The notes under the pieces are model-generated. The model made no database searches. It was not told the origin of the DNA and was given only the letters and a program-made list of their open reading frames with translations. Shown piece by piece: positions 7,281-51,921 of a DNA stretch of 64,000 nucleotides; the first letter of the stretch is position 1; each line of letters begins with the position of its first letter. Source of the DNA: Chloroflexota bacterium (GTDB lineage Bacteria > Chloroflexota > Limnocylindria > P2-11E); the NCBI GenBank assembly GCA_021787445.1, contig JAJYLV010000004.1, positions 17,095 to 81,094 of the forward strand. The letters are read 5' to 3'. The position numbers were made by a program, and so were the translations under genes.

Positions 7281-8210
7281 CTAGCGCTGGCGGTGCCGCG
7301 GGTCGAGCGCGTCCCGGAGTCCGTCGCCCACGTAGTTGATCGAGAGCACGATCAGGAAGATAGCGAGGCCCGGGAAGATCGACGTGTAGGGCGCGATGTC
7401 GAGGTAGTTCTGCGCGTCGTAGAGGAGACGCCCCCACGTCGGCACGTCCGAGGGGAATCCGAGGCCGAGGAACGAGAGGGTCGATTCGGTGATGATCGCG
7501 CCGCCCACGCCGATCGTCGCCGCGACGAGGACCGGGCTCAGCGCGTTCGGGAGGAGGTGCTGGAAGATGATCCGCGCGTCGGTGGCGCCGATGCAGCGCG
7601 CGGCCTCCACGAACTCCTTCTGCTTGAGCGAGAGGAACGAGGCGCGGACGAGACGCGCCACGGGCATCCAGTTGAGCACGCCGATCACGGCGACGATCAT
7701 GACGAAGATGCCCTCGACCTCGCCCAAGGTGCGCTGGAGGGTGTCCCGGAAGAGGTAGATGAGCACGAGCAGAACGGGCAGCGTCGGCAGCGACAGGAAG
7801 ATGTCGGTGACGCGCATGAGCAGGTTGTCGAGCTTGCCGAAGTAGCCCGCGAACGCGCCGATCGCCGTGCCCAAGGTCATGGCGATGACGATGGACACGA
7901 CGCCGACGGCGATCGAGATGCGCCCGCCGAAGAGGACCCGGGCCAGCATGTCCCGCCCCAGGTCGTCGGTGCCGAAGGGGTGCGCGAGCGTCGGCGGCTG
8001 GAGGGCGATCCCGTAGTCCAGCGCGTCCTTCGACTTCGTCCAGACGTACGGCCCCCCGAGGACGAGGATGACGATGACGATCGTGACCGCGAGGCCCGCG
8101 ACGGCGAGCTTGTCGCGCGTGAACGTGTACCACGCGTCCCGCCAGAGGGAGCGCGCCGGCCGGAGGGCTTCCCCTCCCCCGACCGCGATCTCTGCTTGGA
8201 TGGCGGCCAT
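7281..8210 (-). CDS. ABC transporter permease (DppC/OppC-like, peptide/nickel family)
   Basis: Six TM segments and the binding-protein-dependent transport signature. ATG at 8210 overlaps the stop of the upstream permease (ATGA). The long in-frame N-terminal extension in the track is Arg/Pro-rich junk. Confidence 0.85.
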   Translation of the reverse strand: MAAIQAEIAVGGGEALRPARSLWRDAWYTFTRDKLAVAGLAVTIVIVILVLGGPYVWTKSKDALDYGIALQPPTLAHPFGTDDLGRDMLARVLFGGRISIAVGVVSIVIAMTLGTAIGAFAGYFGKLDNLLMRVTDIFLSLPTLPVLLVLIYLFRDTLQRTLGEVEGIFVMIVAVIGVLNWMPVARLVRASFLSLKQKEFVEAARCIGATDARIIFQHLLPNALSPVLVAATIGVGGAIITESTLSFLGLGFPSDVPTWGRLLYDAQNYLDIAPYTSIFPGLAIFLIVLSINYVGDGLRDALDPRHRQR

Positions 8211-29172: not shown

Positions 29173-29757
29173 TCAACCACCCCGGAAGATCTTCTCGCGG
29201 AGCCGCAGGATGCCCTCGATCAGCGCCTCGGGGCGCGGCGGGCAACCGGGAACGTACACGTCGACCGGGACGACCGTGTCGACCCCCTGCAGCGTCGCAT
29301 AGCTGTCCCAGAACTCTCCGCCCGACGACGCGCAGTTGCCCATCGCGATCACCCACTTCGGCTCGGGCATCTGCTCGTAGAGGCGCCGCAGCCGCGGCGC
29401 CATCTTGTGCGTCACCGTGCCCGCGACGATCATGACGTCCGCCTGCCGGGGGCTCGAGCGGAAGACCTCGGCGCCGAACCGCGCGAGGTCGTGATGCGAG
29501 GCGGAAGCCGCCATCATCTCGATGGCGCAGCACGCCAGGCCGTAGCCGAGCGGCCACGGGCTGCGCGAGCGCGCCCAGCTCATGAGGTCCTTGACCGTCG
29601 CGAACACGACGTTGTCCTCGTTCGCGATCGCGCCGGGGGTCGGGGCGACGTAGTCGGGCGCCCCAAGGCCTGTCTGGGTGGTCGTCGGCCGCTGCTTCAG
29701 CGCGTCCGAGATCTCGAAGTGGATCGGCCGCGCGGGGGGCTTCTGGTCGACTGCCAT
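29173..29757 (-). CDS. nuoB: NADH dehydrogenase 20-kDa subunit homolog (NuoB-like, cluster N2 ligands present)
   Basis: [15 protein letters not shown] and GCPPRPE motifs. Confidence 0.85.
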
Positions 29758-45821: not shown

Positions 45822-46735
45822 AGGCCGCGTTCGACCAGGGACGGGATCTCGGTAAGGTCGCGGACGATCGCGTCCGGACGCACCCGAATGCCCGCCGGCG
45901 CCCCGCAGCCACCGCACATCACCGTCCCGTCGCGCAGGAAGAGATCCTCCGACGGGTGCTCGCAGCTTTCGGGACCGCGCCGACGCGGCTCCCGCCACGG
46001 GCTCGACGGGACATCGCCCTCGCGAGCCAGCGCGTCGGCGTAGTCCGACCGGCGCCAGATCCCGCGCATGCCGATCTGCTGCGCCCCCCAGACATCGGCG
46101 ATCAGGTTGTCGCCGACGTGGAATGCCTCCTCCGGACGCGCGTCCGCGATCTCCAGCGCCCGCTCGAATATCGCGGGGTGCGGCTTCCGCCAGCGCGCGC
46201 TGTGCGAGCTCACCACGCCGTACACCGCGTCCTCCAGGCCGAAGCACCGCCAGTCGTCGAGCACCTCCGCGTCCCCGCGCGAGAGGGTGTTCGTCACGAG
46301 AACGACGCGAAGTCCGCGGTCGCTGCACCAGCGGACCGTATCGAGGGCGCCGCGCACCGGGGTCGAGACATCCCGCAGAGGGACGCACATGAGCACCCGA
46401 AGCCGATCGAGGTCGAGGCCGTCGAGCTCGAGGCCCCGCCGTTGGAACCACGCGCGGATCCACTCCAGGGTCTCCTGGCGCGCGTCCTGCGGCGCGAAGC
46501 GATCTCCCCTTTCGTCCCGCGCCGCGAGGGCCTTCGCGAGCGGCACCGACCAGCCGGGCTCGAGGTGCGCGTCCATGAGATCGTCAAGCCACGCTTGCTC
46601 ACCGAGCTCAGCGCACACCTGCTCCCGCATCCGGCTCCGCAGCAGCTCCCGTGGCGCCCAATGCTCGACGAGCGTGTCGCCGACGTCGAAGAACGCCGCT
46701 CGCAGCGTCACCTGGGTATCGTACGGATCGCGCAC
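45818..46735 (-). CDS. HAD-family hydrolase with a Cys-rich C-terminal tail
   Basis: HAD motif I FFDVGDTLV, motif II VLVTNT, conserved Lys (KPHPAIF) and motif III HVGDNLIADV. C-terminal CGGCG. GTG start. An alternative GTG at about 46711. Confidence 0.75.
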   Translation of the reverse strand: MRDPYDTQVTLRAAFFDVGDTLVEHWAPRELLRSRMREQVCAELGEQAWLDDLMDAHLEPGWSVPLAKALAARDERGDRFAPQDARQETLEWIRAWFQRRGLELDGLDLDRLRVLMCVPLRDVSTPVRGALDTVRWCSDRGLRVVLVTNTLSRGDAEVLDDWRCFGLEDAVYGVVSSHSARWRKPHPAIFERALEIADARPEEAFHVGDNLIADVWGAQQIGMRGIWRRSDYADALAREGDVPSSPWREPRRRGPESCEHPSEDLFLRDGTVMCGGCGAPAGIRVRPDAIVRDLTEIPSLVERGL

Positions 46736-46737
46736 TC

Positions 46738-47187
46738 ATGATGGACTTCGAACAGCTCGCCTTCATCGAGAAGTGGCGGCAGCGGGCCTCCCGCGGCATC
46801 GTCGTCGCGCTCGACGGACGCCACGGCGACATCCTCATCACCGTGCGGGTCGGGGAGCTCGGCGAGCGCCTCGACCTCCGAGGGCGCGACGCCACCGGCG
46901 CGATCCGCAAGTCGCGTCTCACCATCGGCGACCGCGTCTTCATCGCCGTCGAGTACGCGGCGACGGACGCCCTCCCCGGCGGCGGCGGCGCGAGCGTGGG
47001 CGGAGGCATCGTGCAGCCGGGCGCGACGGTGGAGGGGACGCTCGTGTCCGTCGGCGAGATCAGCGTCGTTCAATGCGGAGCCGACGTGCTCGTCCGGGGC
47101 GACACGCTCGGCGGCTTCTCCGCGGGCGACCCCGTCCGCTTCCGCGTCGCCGAGGAAGGGAAGGCCTACATCATCCCGACCCGGTAG
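46738..47187 (+). CDS. hypothetical protein with internal two-fold repeat
   Basis: 150 aa from MMDF. High GC3 coding-like composition. Two similar halves (...GDRVFIAVEYAATDA / ...GDPVRFRVAEEGKAY). Convergent with the peroxiredoxin gene, with zero-nt spacing. Confidence 0.5.
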   Translation: MMDFEQLAFIEKWRQRASRGIVVALDGRHGDILITVRVGELGERLDLRGRDATGAIRKSRLTIGDRVFIAVEYAATDALPGGGGASVGGGIVQPGATVEGTLVSVGEISVVQCGADVLVRGDTLGGFSAGDPVRFRVAEEGKAYIIPTR

Positions 47188-47691
47188 CTACGGGATCTTC
47201 TTCAGCTCGTCCTCGATCTCGGCCATGTCGGGGACCTCGCGGAGCGCGTGCACGTCGATGTAGCGCACGATCCCCGCACGGTCGATCACGAAGATCGCCC
47301 GCTCCGGCCGCCCGACGCCCTCGTTGAAGACGCCGTAGGCGCGGGAGAGCGCGCCGTGCGGCCAGAAGTCGGAGCAGAGCGGGATCTCGACGCCCTTCAG
47401 CTCGTCGGCCCACGCCTTCAGCGCGTACACCGTGTCGCACGAGATGCCCAGCACCTGGACACCGTCCGCGCCCGCCTTCCGCTGAAGGCCGCCGAGCGCG
47501 GGGATCTCGCTGTTTCAGGTGTTGGTGAAGGCGAACGCGAAGAACGCGACGACGACCTTCTTCCCGAGGAAGGCGCCGAGCACGATCTCGCGCCCGTCGT
47601 GCGACCGAAGGGTGAACGCCGGAGCGGCGTCCCCGACCCTGAGGGTCGCCGTGTCGCTCGCGAGCTTCGTGCGTCCGACGGGCGCGGTCAC
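47188..47691 (-). CDS. AhpE-like 1-Cys peroxiredoxin with in-frame TGA at the peroxidatic position (candidate selenoprotein)
   Basis: Two adjacent track ORFs (47515..47958 and 47188..47454) lie in the same frame, separated only by TGA at 47515-47517. Joined sequence ...VVVAFFAFAFTNT-U-NSEIPALGG...VLGISCDTV...IPLCSDFWPHGALSRAYGVFNE...FVIDRAGIVRY aligns with AhpE/Prx (FFPLAFTGIC...). GTG start at about 47691. Confidence 0.65.
47455..47503 (-). promoter_or_regulatory. putative bacterial SECIS-like hairpin downstream of the in-frame UGA
   Basis: Starting about 13 nt after the UGA: CCCGCGC-UCGGCG-GCCUUC-AGCG-GAAGGC-GG-GCGCGGG. Two stacked GC-rich helices with a G-containing apical loop. Confidence 0.45.
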
Positions 47692-47709
47692 GCCCGCTAG
47701 AGTACCGGC

Positions 47710-47913
47710 GTGCCGACCGACGTTCAGCCCACGCGGATCGAGGCGGATCGCGCCCGCTTCCTCGCCTACCAGGTCGCATGTCCCTTCGACGGGACGCTGG
47801 TGGGCCCGCGCTTCGTGACGCGCGAGCAGCTCGACGTGCCCCCGAGCCCGCCGTACGCCGCGACGGTGCGCTGCCCCAACGACAAGCAGCTCTTCGAGGT
47901 GGTCTTCCGCTAG
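47710..47913 (+). CDS. hypothetical small protein (67 aa)
   Basis: GTG start, high GC3 and non-repetitive composition (LAYQVACPFDGTLVGPRFVTREQLDV...VRCPNDKQLFEVVFR). Divergent from the peroxiredoxin gene. Confidence 0.45.
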   Translation: MPTDVQPTRIEADRARFLAYQVACPFDGTLVGPRFVTREQLDVPPSPPYAATVRCPNDKQLFEVVFR

Positions 47914-47962
47914 GTGCCGGACCGGCGATGCCGGCGCCGCCCGCCCGCGGCGCCTCATCGCA

Positions 47963-48022
47963 TCAGAGCGGAGCTACTTCTTCTTCGCGCTCTTCTTCGC
48001 TGACTTCTTGGCAGCCTTCTTC
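47963..48022 (-). CDS. Lys-rich mini-protein (19 aa, MPAKKKAAKKSAKKSAKKK)
   Basis: ATG preceded by a strong SD GGGAGGGAGGUGAUCUCG. Co-directional with and 52 nt downstream of the HTH gene. Confidence 0.5.
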   Translation of the reverse strand, partial: EEGCQEVSEEEREEEVAPL

Positions 48023-48074
48023 TTGGCGGGCATCGAGATCACCTCCCTCCCTTCAAGCTGATCCGGCGGATCCC

Positions 48075-48365
48075 CTAGAAGAGCCGGCGCTGGCGCCCGG
48101 AGGTCGTCGAGACAGCTCCGGAACGCGCGAGCCACTCTTCGAACTCTCGACGAGGGATCCGCCAGACCCGACCGACCCTGACCGCGGGGATGCGGCCCGG
48201 GTCCGCGTCGTCCATCGCGCCGAGCCGGCGCAGGATGGTCGTGGGGTGGACGCGCAGGCGGCGTGCGACCTCCTCGGTCGTGAGGTACTCATCCTCGACG
48301 CCACCGGCTGCACTCGCTGCGTTCGCTGCATCTCCGGGCGCTGCCTGCTTCACCTGCGTGCACAC
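48075..48365 (-). CDS. small HTH DNA-binding protein, excisionase/MerR-like (BldC-like)
   Basis: LTTEEVARRLRVHPTTILRRL...PAVRVGRVWRIPRREFEEWL matches the HTH_17/excisionase-family fold used by BldC-type regulators. GTG start. Confidence 0.65.
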   Translation of the reverse strand: MCTQVKQAAPGDAANAASAAGGVEDEYLTTEEVARRLRVHPTTILRRLGAMDDADPGRIPAVRVGRVWRIPRREFEEWLARSGAVSTTSGRQRRLF

Positions 48366-48474
48366 ATTCTGCGGGCACTGTCAAGCAGGCGCTGCTGGGG
48401 CAAGCGCCATGCAGCCACCCGCGAACGGGAGTAGATCTCCGAGTAACGCGATCGGATATCCGTGAGGTGACGCA

Positions 48475-49374
48475 GTGCCCGAAACGATCGGCGACCGGCT
48501 CGTCCGCGGCGACAAGGGAAGCTTCCTCGACGGCCTGGGGAACGCCGCCGGCGCCGTCGTCGGCGGCTTCTACCGCATCGGGGGAACGCGCGCCCTCAAG
48601 GACGCGCTTCACGGCACGTGGCCGCTCCGACATCCGCTCCATCCCGCGGTCACGGACGCGGTCGTGGGCGGATACACGATCGTCGCCCTCCTCGACGTCG
48701 TCTACCTCGTCACCGGCGACGCGGCCCTCTTCCGCGCCACCGACATCGCGCTCGTCGCGTCGCTGATCTTCAGCCTCGGCGCTCTCGCGAGCGGCCTCAC
48801 CGATTGGAACGAGACCTACGGGAACGAGCGACGCCTCGGCGTCCTCCACGGGACGCTCATGCTGCTCATCAGCGTCGGCTACCTCATCTCGCTCTGGCTG
48901 CGCGTCGGCGGCGGCTCGCGCGACGCCGCGATCGGGCTCGGTCTCGCGTGCTGGGTCCTCCTGGGGATCACGTCGTACCTGGGCGGCGAGATGTCCTTCG
49001 GGTTCGGCACGGGCGTGGACCGGCTCGCGTGGTCCGAGGTCGGCGCGGACTGGGAGACGCTCGAGCTTCGCGCCGATGGGCTCGAGGAGCGCAAGGTCGT
49101 GCGCGCGCGGATGAGCAATGGCTTCGCCCTCGCGGTCGTCAAGCTGGACGGCGCCGTGCGCGCGATCGGCGCCGTCTGCACGCACGCGAGCGGTCCGCTC
49201 GACGAGGGCGAGCTCGTCGGCGCCGACGGGTGCGACGTCAAGTGTCCGTGGCATGGATCGGTGTTCTCGTTCCGCAGCGGCTCCGCCCGGCACGGACCGG
49301 CGACGATGGACGAGCCCGCATTCGAGACGCGCGTCGCCGCGGACGGGCGCGTCGAGGTGAAGCTGAGGTCGTGA
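48475..49374 (+). CDS. membrane-anchored Rieske [2Fe-2S] domain protein
   Basis: N-terminal polytopic membrane domain plus a C-terminal Rieske motif CTHASGPL...CPWHGSVF. GTG start. Confidence 0.75.
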   Translation: MPETIGDRLVRGDKGSFLDGLGNAAGAVVGGFYRIGGTRALKDALHGTWPLRHPLHPAVTDAVVGGYTIVALLDVVYLVTGDAALFRATDIALVASLIFSLGALASGLTDWNETYGNERRLGVLHGTLMLLISVGYLISLWLRVGGGSRDAAIGLGLACWVLLGITSYLGGEMSFGFGTGVDRLAWSEVGADWETLELRADGLEERKVVRARMSNGFALAVVKLDGAVRAIGAVCTHASGPLDEGELVGADGCDVKCPWHGSVFSFRSGSARHGPATMDEPAFETRVAADGRVEVKLRS

Positions 49375-49428
49375 TCCCCGTCGCACGCGCGACAGGCTCG
49401 AGGGTGACCCCGCTATCGAACGTTAGAC

Positions 49429-49504
49429 TGACGTTCAGCGGGGTGTGGCCCAGTCCGGTCCAGGGCAACAGTCTGGGGGACTGTAGATCGAGGGTTCAAA
49501 TCCC
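49429..49504 (+). tRNA. tRNA-Pro (anticodon GGG)
   Basis: Acceptor CGGGGUG/CACCCCG, D arm GCCC-(11 nt loop)-GGGC, anticodon arm ACAGU-CUGGGGG-ACUGU, T arm GAGGG-UUCAAAU-CCCUC, discriminator A. Confidence 0.85.
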
Positions 49505-49524
49505 TCCACCCCGACAGTAGATAT

Positions 49525-50097
49525 CTAGGAGACGGCCCTCAGCGCGTATGCGACGAACTCCAGCTGCGTCGGCGGGACGCGCATCCGCATGAGGTCGGCG
49601 GGCTCCACGAATCGCGGAGAGCTCACCGCAGGATCGGTCCCCGCGGCCGGCTCCGACGAGGTACCGGCCGCATAGATGAGCTGCAGGAAGTCGGGATAGG
49701 GGTAGTAGGCGGGCAGGTCGGCACGGGGTCCTCCGAGATCGTGGAAGACCGACAGCCCGAGCAGCCGCGCCTCGCCGTCCATGACGCAACGGACCTCCTC
49801 CCATATCTCGCGGCGCAGGGTGTCCGCGATCGTCTCGCCCGGCTCGATCCTCCCGCCGGGGACGATGTGCGACCAGCCCCCCGGCGAGTCGTAGACGAGG
49901 ATCCGTCCCTGCTGAACCAGGATGGCGCGCGCCCGCATCACGAGGTCGAGCGGCGGCAGGCGGTCCGTGAAGTAGTTCGTCACCTCGAGGTCGATCCCAC
50001 GGGGCCAGCGCACGGTCTCGACGGCGCCCCGGACGAGGCCGGAGAGCGCGGCGCCGACCCGCGTGTCGTAGGGGACCGGCGCCGCGGGGCCCGTCAT
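49525..50097 (-). CDS. NUDIX hydrolase
   Basis: Nudix box GGRIEPGETIADTLRREIWEEV. ATG overlaps the stop of the RibD_C gene (ATGA). Upstream track extension discounted. Confidence 0.75.
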   Translation of the reverse strand: MTGPAAPVPYDTRVGAALSGLVRGAVETVRWPRGIDLEVTNYFTDRLPPLDLVMRARAILVQQGRILVYDSPGGWSHIVPGGRIEPGETIADTLRREIWEEVRCVMDGEARLLGLSVFHDLGGPRADLPAYYPYPDFLQLIYAAGTSSEPAAGTDPAVSSPRFVEPADLMRMRVPPTQLEFVAYALRAVS

Positions 50098-50927
50098 CGC
50101 CGGAACGCGTAGCGCAGGAGGAGGTAGTCGTCGGAGCGCTTCACACCCAGCAGGTCCGCCCACGGCGCGCGCTCCGGGTGGAACGCCGTCGGCTCGACGA
50201 GGCTCATCCCGCGACGCTCCTCGGAGCGCCCGGCGACGTGCGGCGACAGCGTGAGGAACAGCTCGTCCACGACGTGCTCGGCGAGCATGCGGCCGAACAA
50301 TGTCGGACCGGCCTCCGACAGGATCAGACGAGCACCCGTCTCGGCCACGACGGCGTCGATGACCTGGCGCATCGTCGGCTCGCGCTCCCCCACCGCGCGC
50401 ACGGGCACGTCGCGGGTCCGTCCGGCGAGGCGCTCCGCGCCCGCGACGGACGTCACGATGAGAGGCTCGACGTCGGGCGAGTGGAAGACGCCGAGTGAGA
50501 TGTCCACGTCGCCGCTGGCGGTGACGATCGCCACCCGCGTCCGCGGCGGAAGGCCGCGTGCCCGGCGCATCTCCGCGAAGAGGTCCGCGGCCTTCGGGAA
50601 CACCTGCCGCGGCGTCCAGGTCACCCTCGGCTCCGCCCGGAGGGTGCCCGCCCCCGCGACCACCACGTCGGCCGCCGCGCGGAGGATGCCCATCACCGCG
50701 CGGTCGCCGGCGTTGCCCTTGCTGATGGTCGCGGCGCCCAGGAGGCCCGGCAGCCCGAAGGAGACGAGGCCGTCGATGGTCGAGACGAAGTTGGCGAAGA
50801 CGTGCGGCGCACCCACGGGGAACGACAGCTGGCCGCCGTAGCACTGGCGCAGGGCGTCGGGGAGCGGCAGCGGCGATCCCTGCGGCCGCTCGTACAGGGT
50901 CTCGAGCCGGGGCAGCGCCGCGGCCAT
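50094..50927 (-). CDS. RibD C-terminal domain reductase (dihydrofolate reductase-like)
   Basis: 277 aa. RibD_C/DHFR-like fold motifs (VSTIDGLVSF, VVVAGAGTL, LILSEAGPTLFGRML). Confidence 0.7.
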   Translation of the reverse strand: MAAALPRLETLYERPQGSPLPLPDALRQCYGGQLSFPVGAPHVFANFVSTIDGLVSFGLPGLLGAATISKGNAGDRAVMGILRAAADVVVAGAGTLRAEPRVTWTPRQVFPKAADLFAEMRRARGLPPRTRVAIVTASGDVDISLGVFHSPDVEPLIVTSVAGAERLAGRTRDVPVRAVGEREPTMRQVIDAVVAETGARLILSEAGPTLFGRMLAEHVVDELFLTLSPHVAGRSEERRGMSLVEPTAFHPERAPWADLLGVKRSDDYLLLRYAFRR

Positions 50928-50932
50928 CGCGC

Positions 50933-51646
50933 TCAGCCCGAGCGCGCGCCCGCCAGGTGGAAGAACTCCTTCCGCAGCTCGGCGTCGTCCGCGTAGAAGC
51001 CTCGCCACGTGAGCGTGCGTGTCTTCGGGTTGACCGCGCGAACGCCGCGCATCTGCGTGCACAGGTGATGCGCCTCCATGTGCACCGCGACGCCGTGGGC
51101 GTTCACCAGGCGGTAGAGCGAGTTCGCGATCTCCTCGCCCAGGCGCTCCTGCACCGTGAAGCGGCGCGAGAAGACGCGGACGAGGCGCGTCAGCTTCGAG
51201 ATCCCGATGATCCGGTCGTGTGCGATGTACCCCAGGTACGCCTGCCCGTAGAAAGGCAGGGCGTGGTGCTCGCACAGCGCGAAGAAGTGGATGGGGCCCT
51301 CCACGATCTGGTCGACGTGGCACGCCGCGCCGCCCTTGCACTCCGTCGGGAACGTCGTCAGGAGCTTCGGGTCGCCCTCATAGCCGTCGGTGGCGTCGAA
51401 GATGGCCCGCACGAAGCGGCGCGGGGTCGCCCTCGTCCCCGGCTGATCGAGATCGAGCCCGAACGCGGTGAACATCTCCGCCACGTAGCCCTCGAACCGC
51501 TGCCACTGGTCGTCGCTGAGGTCGCGCTTGCGAACGAGGAGGGGCGAGCGCAGCTCCTCGTCGTCGGTGGGCAGGTGCATGTGCGCGACCGCCGCCTGGC
51601 GGATGGGAACGGGCGCATTCTTCCCGCGGCCTTGCTCGGCGCTCAT
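50933..51646 (-). CDS. folE: GTP cyclohydrolase I
   Basis: FolE signature (CEHHALPFYGQAYLGYIA...RIIGISKLTRLV...QERL). ATG at 51646 with a GGAGG SD. Confidence 0.85.
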   Translation of the reverse strand: MSAEQGRGKNAPVPIRQAAVAHMHLPTDDEELRSPLLVRKRDLSDDQWQRFEGYVAEMFTAFGLDLDQPGTRATPRRFVRAIFDATDGYEGDPKLLTTFPTECKGGAACHVDQIVEGPIHFFALCEHHALPFYGQAYLGYIAHDRIIGISKLTRLVRVFSRRFTVQERLGEEIANSLYRLVNAHGVAVHMEAHHLCTQMRGVRAVNPKTRTLTWRGFYADDAELRKEFFHLAGARSG

Positions 51647-51669
51647 GTCGACCTCCGGGGCCTCCCCGC

Positions 51670-51921
51670 TCACGTTCGATCGCCGGCCGGCCCGGACGGG
51701 AGGCCCAGGTACTGGCGCGTGAACTCGTACAGCTTCTCGCGGTCCTCGCGCAGCGCCGGCCGGAGACCATAGTGGTTTATCACGCGGATCTGCGCCTGGA
51801 GCCACTCCTTCCAGCATTCGGCGCAGATCCCGCGCTCGATCCCGTCCCCGAGCGGCCCCGGGAGGACCCGCCCCGCGCCCTCGCGCGTCTCTCCGCACCG
51901 CGCGCACGTCACCTCGACCAC
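51670..51921 (-). CDS. YggX-like Fe(2+)-trafficking protein (COG2924)
   Basis: 83 aa. CARCGE...LPGPLGDGIERGICAECWKEWLQAQIRVINHYGL resembles the YggX family. Confidence 0.6.
   Translation of the reverse strand: MVEVTCARCGETREGAGRVLPGPLGDGIERGICAECWKEWLQAQIRVINHYGLRPALREDREKLYEFTRQYLGLPSGPAGDRT

What the first reader, a model, noticed from the sequence alone, without database searches (positions are those of the whole stretch)
47188..47700. In-frame TGA at the peroxidatic-Cys position of an AhpE-like peroxiredoxin, followed by a SECIS-like hairpin
Two adjacent ORFs (47515..47958 and 47188..47454) are in the same frame and separated only by one TGA. Read through, they give a complete 167-aa peroxiredoxin closely resembling 1-Cys AhpE (e.g. 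FPLLSDFWPHGAVSQAYGVFNE versus IPLCSDFWPHGALSRAYGVFNE). The TGA falls exactly where the peroxidatic Cys sits (FFPLAFTGIC-QGE versus FFAFAFTNT-U-NSE). About 13 nt downstream the mRNA can fold into a GC-rich two-helix hairpin with a G-containing apical loop, which is the geometry of bacterial SECIS elements. Prx-like selenoproteins are known in bacteria, but one in an AhpE-type enzyme of a high-GC organism would be unusual.
Basis: partly seen in the sequence, partly recalled or inferred. Interest (0 to 1): 0.8.

Follow-up and report, generated by a model that had tools for sequence, protein, structure and literature searches.

The report
Selenocysteine peroxiredoxin gene, two-hairpin signal
This is a real gene for an AhpE-like peroxide-detoxifying enzyme whose catalytic cysteine is replaced by selenocysteine (encoded by an in-frame UGA); this is a known kind of protein that public annotation splits in two, and its recoding signal is an unusual pair of RNA hairpins.

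Summary
On the minus strand, 47691..47188 is one 167-codon AhpE-like peroxiredoxin gene. It has a single in-frame TGA (47517..47515) exactly at the peroxidatic-Cys position.

The TGA is not an error. 103 homologous genes from Limnocylindria, Anaerolineae, Bacilli, Acidobacteriota and metagenomes carry TGA, never TAA or TAG, at this codon. Both flanks are under purifying selection (dN/dS 0.28 and 0.23). TGA is also the ordinary stop of 19 of 33 window genes.

It is present in all 65 genes of the first set, shows covariation, and is absent from Cys homologs. B, not A, carries the loop motif typical of SelB-binding SECIS elements.

TxxU selenoperoxiredoxins are already known, so this is a new member of a known kind. 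It is not covered by the NCBIfam PrxU or Prx-SUH models and is annotated as two fragments in GenBank.

I could not search the genome for the sel genes. A second candidate selenoprotein, a MEDS-domain protein with a canonical SECIS, occurs on a Limnocylindria contig that also carries the Prx gene.

The parts
47188..47691 (-). Complete selenoprotein gene: a 167-codon AhpE-like peroxiredoxin (GTG start 47691..47689, Sec codon 59, TAG stop 47190..47188).
   Evidence: sequence, single in-frame stop; Pfam AhpC-TSA 1-124/124, E 3.7e-32; orthologs start M/V-AAPKGRTK; MtAhpE, E 7e-28; dN/dS 0.28 upstream and 0.23 downstream of the TGA.
47515..47517 (-). In-frame UGA, read as selenocysteine (U59) at the peroxidatic position of the T-x-x-U motif (T56 N57 T58 U59).
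   Evidence: aligns with the Cys of FTGIC in MtAhpE. TGA at this codon in 64/64 and 37 further homologs, never TAA or TAG. Cys homologs have TGT/TGC here.
47466..47501 (-). Basal helix CCGCGC(UC)/(GG)GCGCGG and apical helix GCCUUC/GAAGGC (47474..47489) with loop AGCG (47480..47483). It starts 13 nt after the UGA and its loop starts 31 nt after it.
   Evidence: centroid; -24.5 kcal/mol, z -2.48; a 12-18 bp hairpin at this place in 65/65 genes; z -2.50 against dinucleotide shuffles and -1.75 against synonymous recoding, with controls near -0.3. Sec genes -3.23, Cys genes +0.13; 8 of 15 pairs have compensatory changes. G-C to A-U change against a 99.78% identical genome.
47446..47460 (-). Loop GGUGC is at 47451..47455. 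The stem starts 54 nt and the loop 59 nt after the UGA. It is encoded by the V-Q-V-L-G codons.
   Evidence: -11.1 kcal/mol, z -3.48; the only RNAalifold consensus helix; core pairs about 100% kept, pair 58-72 switches GC/AU; loop GGUNN in 103/103, stem CCCA/UGGG in 95/103 with the rest wobble-compatible; absent from Ser-type and Cys-type homologs, even where the peptide is the same AQVVGI.
47437..47439 (-). Cys85 (GISCD). It is invariant among the 14 Limnocylindria-type sequences aligned. Cys-type relatives have Ile or Val here. It is a candidate resolving residue.
   Evidence: alignments. The role is inferred and was not tested.
47374..47376 (-). Cys106 (PLCSDFWPHG), where AhpE and many Sec forms have Leu. 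It is a second candidate resolving residue.
   Evidence: One search shows many Sec forms with PLL, so it is not required for Sec use. The role is inferred.
47299..47301 (-). Arg131 (GRPERAIF), the conserved active-site arginine of peroxiredoxins.
   Evidence: invariant column; aligns with the Arg of IANRGTF in MtAhpE.

Best explanation
The region 47691..47188 (minus strand) is a functional gene for a 167-residue AhpE-like peroxiredoxin. The peroxidatic residue is selenocysteine, encoded by UGA at 47517..47515.

Proposed recoding mechanism (inferred): during translation, SelB carrying Sec-tRNA(Sec) is recruited by an mRNA structure just downstream, and the UGA is read as Sec instead of stop.

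What is shown about the structure: it consists of two adjacent hairpins.
- Hairpin A is a long stem of 12-18 bp with variable sequence. It starts 8-13 nt after the UGA.
- Hairpin B is a short stem CCCA/UGGG closing an invariant GGUNN loop. It starts 54 nt after the UGA.

My preferred reading (inferred, about 50%): hairpin B is the SelB-binding element. Hairpin A acts as a folded spacer that loops out 14 codons. The GGU loop then sits an effective 17 nt or so from the UGA, which is the distance seen in canonical bacterial SECIS elements.

Proposed enzyme chemistry (inferred from peroxiredoxin chemistry): the selenolate reduces peroxides to a selenenic acid. This is recycled by a thiol partner, probably a glutaredoxin- or mycoredoxin-like protein. 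Cys85 or Cys106 may first form a selenenylsulfide.
For: A real gene, not a broken one:
- Pfam AhpC-TSA matches end to end across the stop.
- The closest solved relatives are the MtAhpE chains, with the stop in the column of the catalytic Cys.
- The closest database proteins (60-96% identity) are nearly all fragments that end at ...FAFTNT or begin just after the stop.
- 57 species-level Limnocylindria genomes plus Bacilli, Anaerolineae and Acidobacteriota carry TGA at this codon, 64 of 64. So do 37 further metagenome genes.
- dN/dS is 0.28 upstream and 0.23 downstream of the TGA, at dS about 0.7.
- GC3 is 0.95 upstream and 0.97 downstream.
- TGA terminates 19 of 33 other genes in the window, so the genetic code is standard.

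RNA signal:
- Both hairpins are more stable than dinucleotide shuffles (z -2.50 and -2.38, against -0.2 to -0.36 for three control regions of the same genes).
- Both are more stable than synonymous recodings (-1.75 and -2.59, against about -0.3).
- In an independent set, 36 Sec genes give z -3.23 for A and -3.47 for B. The 29 Cys homologs give +0.13 and -0.16.
- Covariation: 83.4% of cells are paired, against 41% or less with slid partners. Ten pairs have compensatory changes. The covariation score is 0.258 against 0.143 for shuffles, reached by 0 of 500 shuffles.
- A genome 99.78% identical differs at 12 of 5366 nt. Three of those 12 lie in hairpin A and convert a G-C pair to A-U.

B as the SelB site:
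- The loop is GGUNN in 103 of 103 genes.
- Hairpin A's loop shows G[G|U] in only 0 of 60 and 2 of 43 genes.
- The published bSECIS consensus wants G[G|U] at the start of a small loop (PMC13188914).
- The closest Cys homolog encodes the same AQVVGI peptide with GCG CAG GTC GTC GGC, which cannot form hairpin B.
- A second candidate selenoprotein gene of the same lineage has a single hairpin with loop AGUU starting 16 nt after its UGA.
- If hairpin A is folded, the distance from the UGA to B's loop is a median of 17 nt.

Thiol partner:
- Relatives are fused to a C-terminal glutaredoxin domain with a CPxC motif (P0050, P0074, P0076, P0108).
Against: - No selA, selB, selD or tRNA-Sec gene lies in the 64-kb window or in the flanks of the 60 related loci scanned for tRNAs (L001-L060). 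The rest of the genome could not be searched.
- No Rfam family matches the region.
- There is no protein-level or selenium-labelling evidence.
- Hairpin B's loop lies 59 nt from the UGA in linear sequence. That is outside the 16-37 nt range of the bacterial SECIS model (PMC13188914).
- Hairpin A does satisfy that range, and in this window its loop AGCG has G in the second position. The simpler reading that A is the SECIS is therefore not excluded.
- The Pro of the PxxxTxxC motif is Ala in this protein. Activity is assumed, not shown.
Confidence: 0.88

Rival explanations
1. Same selenoprotein, different division of labour. Hairpin A alone is the SECIS that binds SelB. Hairpin B is an accessory element, for example one that keeps A correctly folded, slows the ribosome, or gives a second low-affinity contact.
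For: - Hairpin A meets the published spacing rule. Its loop starts 24-31 nt after the UGA, within the 16-37 nt range (PMC13188914).
- In this window it meets all four criteria: 6-bp upper stem, 4-nt loop AGCG with G at position 2, and -24.5 kcal/mol.
- It covaries and is specific to Sec genes.
- In non-Limnocylindria members its loop usually starts with G (27 of 43, often GAUCU).
Against: [quoted passage not shown] The most common loop is CCAGC.
- The loop sequence is not conserved even within the class, which is unexpected for a protein-recognition site.
- Hairpin B's loop is invariant across phyla.
- The other candidate selenoprotein gene of the lineage uses a GU-containing loop.
Confidence: 0.35
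2. The TGA is a sequencing or assembly error, or a recent inactivating mutation. Under this reading the locus is a pseudogene or a misassembled Cys-peroxiredoxin gene.
For: - A single window cannot exclude a TGC/TGT-to-TGA error.
- Public annotation treats the locus as two ORFs.
Against: - TGA is at the same codon in 103 independently assembled genes from many samples and several phyla.
- Both halves are under purifying selection.
- RNA structure downstream is specific to the TGA-bearing genes.
- An independent assembly 99.78% identical to the window has the same TGA.
Confidence: 0.01
3. The UGA is read by something other than Sec-tRNA. Candidates are near-cognate read-through inserting Trp or Cys, or a lineage-specific reassignment of UGA. 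The product would then be a non-selenium protein.
For: - Two database proteins show W at the equivalent positions (P0066 for the Prx, P0122 for the MEDS protein).
- The sel genes were not observed.
Against: - TGA is the most frequent ordinary stop in the window (19 of 33 gene ends), so it is not reassigned.
- The codon sits at the catalytic Cys, where Trp would inactivate the enzyme.
- Conserved hairpins with a SECIS-type GGU loop accompany the UGA only.
- The W residues are most simply gene-caller translations of TGA with genetic code table 4. This is my inference; their DNA was not examined.
Confidence: 0.04
4. The UGA is a genuine stop. The locus would encode two separate polypeptides, a 58-residue N-terminal piece and a C-terminal piece, that assemble into a split peroxiredoxin.
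For: Gene callers do predict a downstream ORF of 88-105 residues.
Against: - The predicted restarts are at different, non-conserved positions. In this window the first start codon after the stop is a GTG 20 codons downstream, which would delete the active-site helix.
- Such a protein would have no peroxidatic residue at all.
- The codons between the stop and the putative restarts are conserved as protein.
Confidence: 0.02

Closest known systems
Selenocysteine-containing peroxiredoxins (Prx, TxxU motif; prototype PrxU of Eubacterium acidaminophilum; NCBIfam NF040737)
   Same: - Same superfamily (PF00578).
- Sec replaces the peroxidatic Cys in the T-x-x-U motif.
- The UGA is followed by an mRNA hairpin inside the coding region.
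- The family is listed as an experimentally verified bacterial selenoprotein family (PMC13188914). [quoted passage not shown]
   Different: - It is not a PrxU ortholog: 65.6 bits against a cut-off of 270.
- It belongs to the short AhpE-like branch (167 aa; SDFWPHG motif).
- In Limnocylindria the Pro of PxxxTxxU is Ala.
- The recoding signal is two tandem hairpins, with the GGU loop in the distal one.
Mycobacterium tuberculosis AhpE (Rv2238c; PDB 1xvw, 1xxu, 4x0x), the 1-Cys peroxiredoxin that defines the AhpE subfamily
   Same: - Closest solved relative (E 7e-28 over residues 15-157).
- Same length class.
- Shared motifs AFT..[C/U] and PL.SDFWPHGA.S.AYGVFNE, and the conserved Arg.
- AhpE is reduced by mycoredoxin-1/mycothiol (my own knowledge). 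That fits the glutaredoxin fusions seen among relatives here.
   Different: - Sec instead of Cys at the active site.
- Two additional Cys residues (C85, C106) that AhpE lacks.
- Pro to Ala in the active-site motif.
- The host is a Chloroflexota bacterium, not an actinobacterium.
Canonical bacterial SECIS (E. coli fdhF type; bSECISearch consensus)
   Same: - A stem-loop in the coding region just 3' of the UGA.
- A small apical loop beginning G-G-U, closed by A-U and C-G pairs. Here it is CA-GGUNN-UG. From memory, E. coli fdhF has CA-GGUC-UG.
- Free energy below -7.5 kcal/mol.
   Different: - In the consensus, one hairpin carries both the right spacing (16-37 nt) and the G[G|U] loop (PMC13188914).
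- Here the two properties are split. Hairpin A has the spacing but a variable loop. Hairpin B has the loop but lies 59 nt away in linear sequence, or about 17 nt if A is folded out.
- No Rfam model matches.

Membership tests
Peroxiredoxin superfamily (Pfam PF00578 AhpC-TSA) | Full-length match to the family profile above the curated threshold. | tested here: met
   111.3 bits against a cut-off of 26; profile 1-124/124; E 3.7e-32, with Cys substituted for the stop.
Peroxiredoxin superfamily (Pfam PF00578 AhpC-TSA) | Active-site motif PxxxTxxC (here U) plus the conserved Arg. | tested here: inconclusive
   T56-x-x-U59 and Arg131 are present. The Pro is Ala in the window (FFAFAFTNTU) and Ala, Ser or His in most Limnocylindria orthologs. 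Non-Limnocylindria Sec forms keep Pro.
AhpE subfamily of peroxiredoxins | Closest sequence relationship to M. tuberculosis AhpE rather than to the Prx1/AhpC, BCP, Tpx or Prx6 types. | tested here: met
   All seven top PDB sequences are MtAhpE (E 7e-28 to 9e-27). The next family, Prx1/TSA, scores 1e-15. No curated AhpE-specific HMM was available, and all NCBIfam equivalogs fall below their cut-offs.
AhpE subfamily of peroxiredoxins | 1-Cys mechanism: no resolving Cys in the protein. | tested here: inconclusive
   The window protein has two extra Cys residues (C85, C106) that are absent from MtAhpE.
PrxU selenoperoxiredoxin (NCBIfam NF040737, equivalog) | Score at or above the curated cut-off of the equivalog model. 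| tested here: not met
   65.6 bits against a cut-off of 270.
Prx-SUH thiol peroxidase selenoprotein (NCBIfam NF045827) | Score at or above the curated cut-off. | tested here: not met
   41.3 bits against a cut-off of 298. The motif is also different: CxxU there, TxxU here (PMC13188914).
Bacterial selenoprotein gene | In-frame UGA aligned with Cys in homologs. | tested here: met
   MtAhpE Cys. P0003 FSGVC. 29 metagenomic homologs with TGT or TGC at the codon.
Bacterial selenoprotein gene | The UGA is conserved among orthologs, and coding constraint holds on both sides. | tested here: met
   TGA in 64 of 64 genes and in 37 further genes. dN/dS is 0.28 upstream and 0.23 downstream.
Bacterial selenoprotein gene | A SECIS-like stem-loop immediately downstream of the UGA. 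| tested here: met
   Hairpins A and B are both specific to the UGA-bearing genes and supported by covariation.
Bacterial selenoprotein gene | The genome encodes selA, selB, selD and tRNA-Sec. | not testable with these tools
   None is in the window or, for tRNA-Sec, in the flanks of loci L001-L060. Indirect support comes from a second conserved TGA-at-Cys gene with a canonical SECIS on a Limnocylindria contig that also carries the Prx.
Bacterial selenoprotein gene | Selenium is incorporated into the protein. | not testable with these tools
   This requires 75Se labelling or mass spectrometry.
Bacterial SECIS consensus (bSECISearch model as given in PMC13188914) | A single hairpin with a 3-9 nt loop, a 4-16 bp upper stem, G in the first two loop positions (mostly G[G|U]), 16-37 nt between the UGA and the loop, and MFE of -7.5 kcal/mol or lower. 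| tested here: inconclusive
   Hairpin A in the window meets all four criteria (loop AGCG, 6 bp, 31 nt, -24.5 kcal/mol). Across the clade, only 18 of 60 A loops have the G and none of 60 has G[G|U]. Hairpin B meets loop, stem and energy in 103 of 103 genes (-11.1 kcal/mol in the window). It fails linear spacing at 59 nt, but the distance is about 17 nt if A is folded.

The most novel reading that the evidence does not exclude
The recoding signal is a 'bridged' bacterial SECIS. The element that SelB recognises is hairpin B (CCCA-GGUNN-UGGG), encoded by the conserved QV(L/V)G strand 54 nt downstream of the UGA. A long stem of variable sequence (hairpin A) loops out the 14 intervening codons, so that B is presented at the mRNA entrance at the canonical distance of about 17 nt.

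This would be a class of bacterial SECIS that the standard 16-37 nt search model cannot assign correctly. It would also show how a Cys-to-Sec switch can recruit a distant, protein-constrained piece of coding sequence as its SECIS.
Probability: 0.45. Interest if true: 0.65.

Novelty: new member of a known kind. Interest (0 to 1): 0.42.

Why it matters
- Annotation. The gene is split into two 'redoxin domain-containing' fragments in GenBank, for example in GCA_018971975.1. The closest entries in a 5.8-billion-protein collection are nearly all truncated at the UGA. Current NCBIfam selenoprotein models do not catch this AhpE-like branch, so a common antioxidant enzyme of soil and freshwater Chloroflexota is systematically missed.

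- Biology of the lineage. The result implies selenium use in the class Limnocylindria. I found no paper in the searchable library that mentions selenocysteine together with that class.

- Mechanism. The family offers 103 natural sequence variants of a two-hairpin recoding signal, in which spacing and loop motif are carried by different hairpins. That makes the question of what bacterial SelB actually needs directly testable.

- Side finding. A MEDS-domain sensor protein with a conserved UGA at a Cys position would, if confirmed, be a selenoprotein family I could not find described.

Tried and rejected
- Rfam found nothing relevant at gathering threshold on the whole window, or at E up to 10 on the region and on a lower-GC homolog.
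It includes unstructured flanks and a competing pairing.
- RNAalifold on ungapped alignments recovers only hairpin B. The register of hairpin A shifts by 1-2 nt between clades. A fixed-register count on the Limnocylindria-dominated alignment therefore gives only 67.8% pairing for A. The more diverse set gives clear covariation.
- A search for other CCAGGTNNTGG hairpins behind in-frame TGAs in 1.2 Mb of window plus loci found none.
- A scan for TGA-interrupted coding frames in the window found only the Prx. It also flagged the ordinary nuoB/nuoC junction at 29173..29175.
The distances from C85 and C106 to U59 are therefore unknown.
- An exact-match look-up of the neighbouring Rieske gene failed. 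The origin was instead found through P0001.
- A 95-nt 'tRNA-Glu' in L007 was checked as a possible tRNA-Sec. It is a false call inside a coding region.
- Pfam scans of 30 window ORFs found no SelA, SelB or SelD.
Full report
**1. What is in the sequence.**

The feature lies on the minus strand.
- ORF 47515..47958 ends in TGA (47517..47515), and the same frame continues open to TAG 47190..47188.
- Translating 47694..47188 gives one internal stop in ...GKKVVVAFFAFAFTNT*NSEIPALGGLQRK....
- Orthologs begin M/V-AAPKGRTK. The start is therefore GTG 47691..47689, and the gene has 58 codons, the UGA, then 108 codons.
- With Cys in place of the stop, the product matches Pfam AhpC-TSA over the complete profile (1-124/124, E 3.7e-32) and also matches Redoxin.
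- Against solved structures, the seven best sequences are all M. tuberculosis AhpE (E 7e-28 to 9e-27). The next family scores 1e-15.
- The alignment puts the stop in the column of the Cys of FFPLAFTGICQGE.

**2. The UGA is conserved, not accidental.**

- The closest proteins in the 5.8-billion-sequence collection (60-96% identity) are almost all fragments. They are either 91-113-residue C-terminal pieces that begin just after the stop, or 104-residue pieces that end exactly at ...FFAFAFTNT.
- A scan of one genome per species returned 80 loci. L001-L057 are almost all labelled Candidatus Limnocylindria or Chloroflexota, at 58-80% identity. All of them have an in-frame stop at this codon.
- The same holds for Tumebacillus permanentifrigoris and two other Bacilli, for Anaerolinea thermolimosa and an Anaerolineaceae MAG, and for two Acidobacteriota.
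- All 64 stops are TGA.
- A metagenome scan seeded with Cys-type relatives gave 37 more TGA genes and 29 genes with TGT or TGC at the codon.
- Among 57 Limnocylindria-type genes, dN/dS is 0.28 for the 50 codons before the TGA and 0.23 for the 100 codons after it, at dS about 0.7.
- Third-position G+C is 0.95 before and 0.97 after the TGA.
- TGA is also the normal terminator of 19 of 33 other genes in the window, so the code is standard.
- An independent assembly is 99.78% identical to window 46385..51750 (GCA_018971975.1, contig JAGWZQ010000060.1) and has the same TGA. There the gene is annotated as two ORFs of 58 and 105 residues.

Error, pseudogene and split-gene readings are therefore not tenable.

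**3. The RNA downstream: two hairpins.**

Positions are counted from the U of UGA as position 0.

*Hairpin A.*
- In the window it spans positions 16-51 (47501..47466).
- It has a basal helix CCGCGC(UC)/(GG)GCGCGG and an apical helix GCCUUC/GAAGGC with loop AGCG.
- On its own it folds at -24.5 kcal/mol, z -2.48.
- Every one of 65 genes folds a 12-18 bp hairpin here. It starts at positions 11-16 and ends at 50-54.

*Hairpin B.*
- It lies immediately 3' of A, at positions 57-71 (47460..47446): GUCCA-GGUGC-UGGGC.
- It folds at -11.1 kcal/mol, z -3.48.
- It is the only helix that RNAalifold finds in common across all sequences.

**4. Both hairpins are selected at the RNA level and are specific to the Sec genes.**

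- Against dinucleotide shuffles, the mean z over 65 genes is -2.50 for A and -2.38 for B. Three control regions of the same genes give -0.22, -0.36 and -0.21.
- Against synonymous-codon resampling, which keeps the protein, z is -1.75 for A and -2.59 for B. Controls give about -0.3.
- In the independent metagenome set, 36 Sec genes give -3.23 (A) and -3.47 (B). The 29 Cys homologs give +0.13 and -0.16.
- On 43 non-Limnocylindria Sec genes, with one fixed structure:
  - 83.4% of cells pair, against 41% or less when partners are slid;
  - 10 of 22 pairs show compensatory changes;
  - the covariation score is 0.258 against 0.143 for shuffles, reached by 0 of 500 shuffles;
  - helix A has 8 of 15 pairs with changes on both sides, for example GC:17/UA:12;
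  - helix B is 98.6% paired, with two switching pairs, for example GC:23/AU:17.
- The near-identical genome L162 differs from the window at only 12 of 5366 positions. Three of these fall in hairpin A, at positions 24, 28 and 43 (47493, 47489, 47474).
  - Position 43 is the partner of 28 in the two-helix fold, and of 24 in the isolated-hairpin MFE.
  - In either fold, G-C becomes A-U, at the cost of amino-acid changes.

**5. Which hairpin is the SelB site?**

*The published model.* It asks for a 3-9 nt loop, a 4-16 bp stem, a G (mostly G[G|U]) in the first two loop positions, 16-37 nt between the UGA and the loop, and -7.5 kcal/mol or lower (PMC13188914). Structural work places the conserved loop G about 20 nt after the UGA (PMC4605307). 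In E. coli the 17-nt upper hairpin sits 11 nt from the UGA, with G23 and U24 essential (PMC8659212).

*Hairpin A.*
- It has the right spacing: its loop starts 24-31 nt after the UGA.
- Its loop is variable.
[quoted passage not shown] In the other lineages the figures are 27 of 43 and 2 of 43.

*Hairpin B.*
- It has loop GGUNN in 103 of 103 genes. The stem is CCCA/UGGG in 95 of 103, and the rest are wobble-compatible.
- Its conserved bases occupy synonymous positions: NCC CAG GUN NUG GGN.
- Non-Sec homologs vary at those positions.
  - Ser-type Acidobacteria use GTG, GTA or GTC and GCN.
  - The closest Cys homolog encodes the identical AQVVGI as GCG CAG GTC GTC GGC.
  - The other Cys forms encode A(I/V)LLG with mixed codons.
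- Its linear distance of 59 nt violates the model.
- If A is folded, the path from the UGA to B's loop is a median of 17 nt, range 15-23.

I therefore favour B as the SelB-binding element and A as a structured spacer (about 50%). The alternative, A as the SECIS with B accessory, stands at about 35%. This step is inference; no binding data exist.

**6. Independent hint from the same lineage.**

A scan for TGA-interrupted coding frames flagged a second gene on contig L046, a Limnocylindria MAG that also carries the Sec-Prx.
- It is a MEDS-domain gene (Pfam MEDS 1-161/161 across the stop, E 1.7e-39).
- Its TGA lies where full-length homologs have Cys (DPVI-C-[VT]YD).
- Seven cluster representatives at 84-91% identity all end at ...RYRDPVI.
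- In eight further contigs from JGI and ENA metagenomes the codon is TGA, and the frame continues for 52 conserved codons.
- Downstream lies a single hairpin, GCGCCA-AGUU-UGGCGC. Its loop starts 16 nt after the UGA. This is a canonical bSECIS with a GU in the loop.

This supports Sec decoding in the lineage. It also suggests that its SelB reads G-U loops at about 16-17 nt, which fits hairpin B with A folded out. I found no paper that links MEDS domains and selenoproteins.

**7. Protein function (inferred).**

- T56-x-x-U59 and Arg131 are in place, so this should be a peroxidase. The selenolate would attack the peroxide.
- Relatives, both Cys and Sec forms, carry a C-terminal glutaredoxin domain with a CPxC motif (P0050, P0074, P0076, P0108).
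- MtAhpE is recycled by mycoredoxin-1 (my own knowledge). A glutaredoxin-like reductant is therefore likely.
- Limnocylindria forms have Cys85 (GISCD) and Cys106 (PLCSD), where Cys-type relatives have Ile/Val and Leu. Either could form a selenenylsulfide.
- Many other Sec forms have PLL at the second site, so that Cys is not required.
- The Pro of PxxxTxxC is Ala here. The consequence is unknown.

**8. Comparison with what is known; novelty.**

- Sec-peroxiredoxins with TxxU are listed among the experimentally verified bacterial selenoproteins (PMC13188914). They had 12 members in 2006 genomes (PMC1794560) and 43 genes in the Sargasso Sea data (PMC1088965).
- This gene is not an ortholog of PrxU (65.6 bits against 270) or of Prx-SUH (41.3 against 298). 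It belongs to the AhpE-like branch.
- No paper in the library combines AhpE with a natural Sec form, or Limnocylindria with selenocysteine.
- I classify it as a new member of a known kind.
- The two-hairpin signal may be a new variant of the bacterial SECIS, but that rests on inference.

**9. What remains open.**

- selA, selB, selD and tRNA-Sec were not found in the window, and no tRNA-Sec lies in the flanks of loci L001-L060. They could not be sought elsewhere in the genome.
- There is no evidence of selenium in the protein.
- The roles of the two hairpins, of C85 and C106, and of the Pro-to-Ala change are untested.

Noticed in passing
L046:6847-7489 (+), TGA at 7330; also L163-L170: A MEDS-domain gene has a conserved in-frame TGA where full-length homologs have Cys (DPVI-C-[VT]YD). 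It is followed by a canonical SECIS-like hairpin, GCGCCA-AGUU-UGGCGC, whose loop starts 16 nt after the UGA. Seven database clusters end exactly at the TGA. The gene lies upstream of a hybrid histidine kinase/response regulator. It is a possible undescribed selenoprotein family, on a Limnocylindria contig that also carries the Sec-Prx.
   Followed up: partly
L064, L066-L080 (match coordinates as): Acidobacteriota/Terriglobia homologs keep PLCSDFWPHG and ERAIF. They have Ser at the peroxidatic position and Glu in place of the motif Thr (FYPLNWEPVSAEQ). This is a peroxiredoxin-like family without the catalytic Cys or Sec.
   Followed up: no
window 47974-48033 (-): A 19-codon ORF, MPAKKKAAKKSAKKSAKKK, sits behind a strong GGAGGGAGG ribosome-binding site, between the HTH_17 gene and the Prx. 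A similar MPAKKKAAKKT... ORF sits at the same place in L017, and the region is included in a 53-aa gene call in L162.
   Followed up: no
window 47710-47913 (+): A 67-residue ORF lies on the opposite strand just upstream of the Prx start. It is called as a gene at the same place in GCA_018971975.1 (L162:3838-4041). It has two CP..D motifs and no Pfam match.
   Followed up: partly
L162:4060-4563 (= window 47188-47691): The public annotation of GCA_018971975.1 splits the selenoprotein gene into a 58-aa and a 105-aa ORF ('redoxin domain-containing protein'). The same truncation affects nearly all close homologs in the protein collection.
   Followed up: yes
P0066 (Prx) and P0122 (MEDS protein): Both database proteins show Trp exactly at the Sec/Cys position (FTGGW..., DPVIWTYD). 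They are probably TGA codons translated with genetic code 4 by a gene caller, and so further Sec forms. Their DNA was not examined.
   Followed up: no
P0050, P0074, P0076, P0108: These are relatives of this peroxiredoxin fused to a C-terminal glutaredoxin domain (CPxC). P0074 and P0076 start at MPSYE..., just after the active site, so they are probably truncated Sec forms. The fusions point to a glutaredoxin-like reductant for the family.
   Followed up: no
window 47474, 47489, 47493 against L162: Three of the only 12 differences between two 99.78% identical genomes fall within the 42-nt hairpin A. They change a G-C pair to A-U, with accompanying amino-acid changes Gly to Ser, Gly to Asp and Ala to Val.
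   Followed up: yes
window 49439-49515 (+) and the equivalent positions in most Limnocylindria loci: A tRNA-Pro(GGG) gene lies about 1.5-5 kb from the Prx gene in the window and in most of the Limnocylindria loci that extend far enough. GTP cyclohydrolase I, Rieske/DUF2231 and HTH_17 genes also flank the Prx in the window and in L162. The neighbourhood is chromosomal and partly syntenic, not a mobile element.
   Followed up: partly
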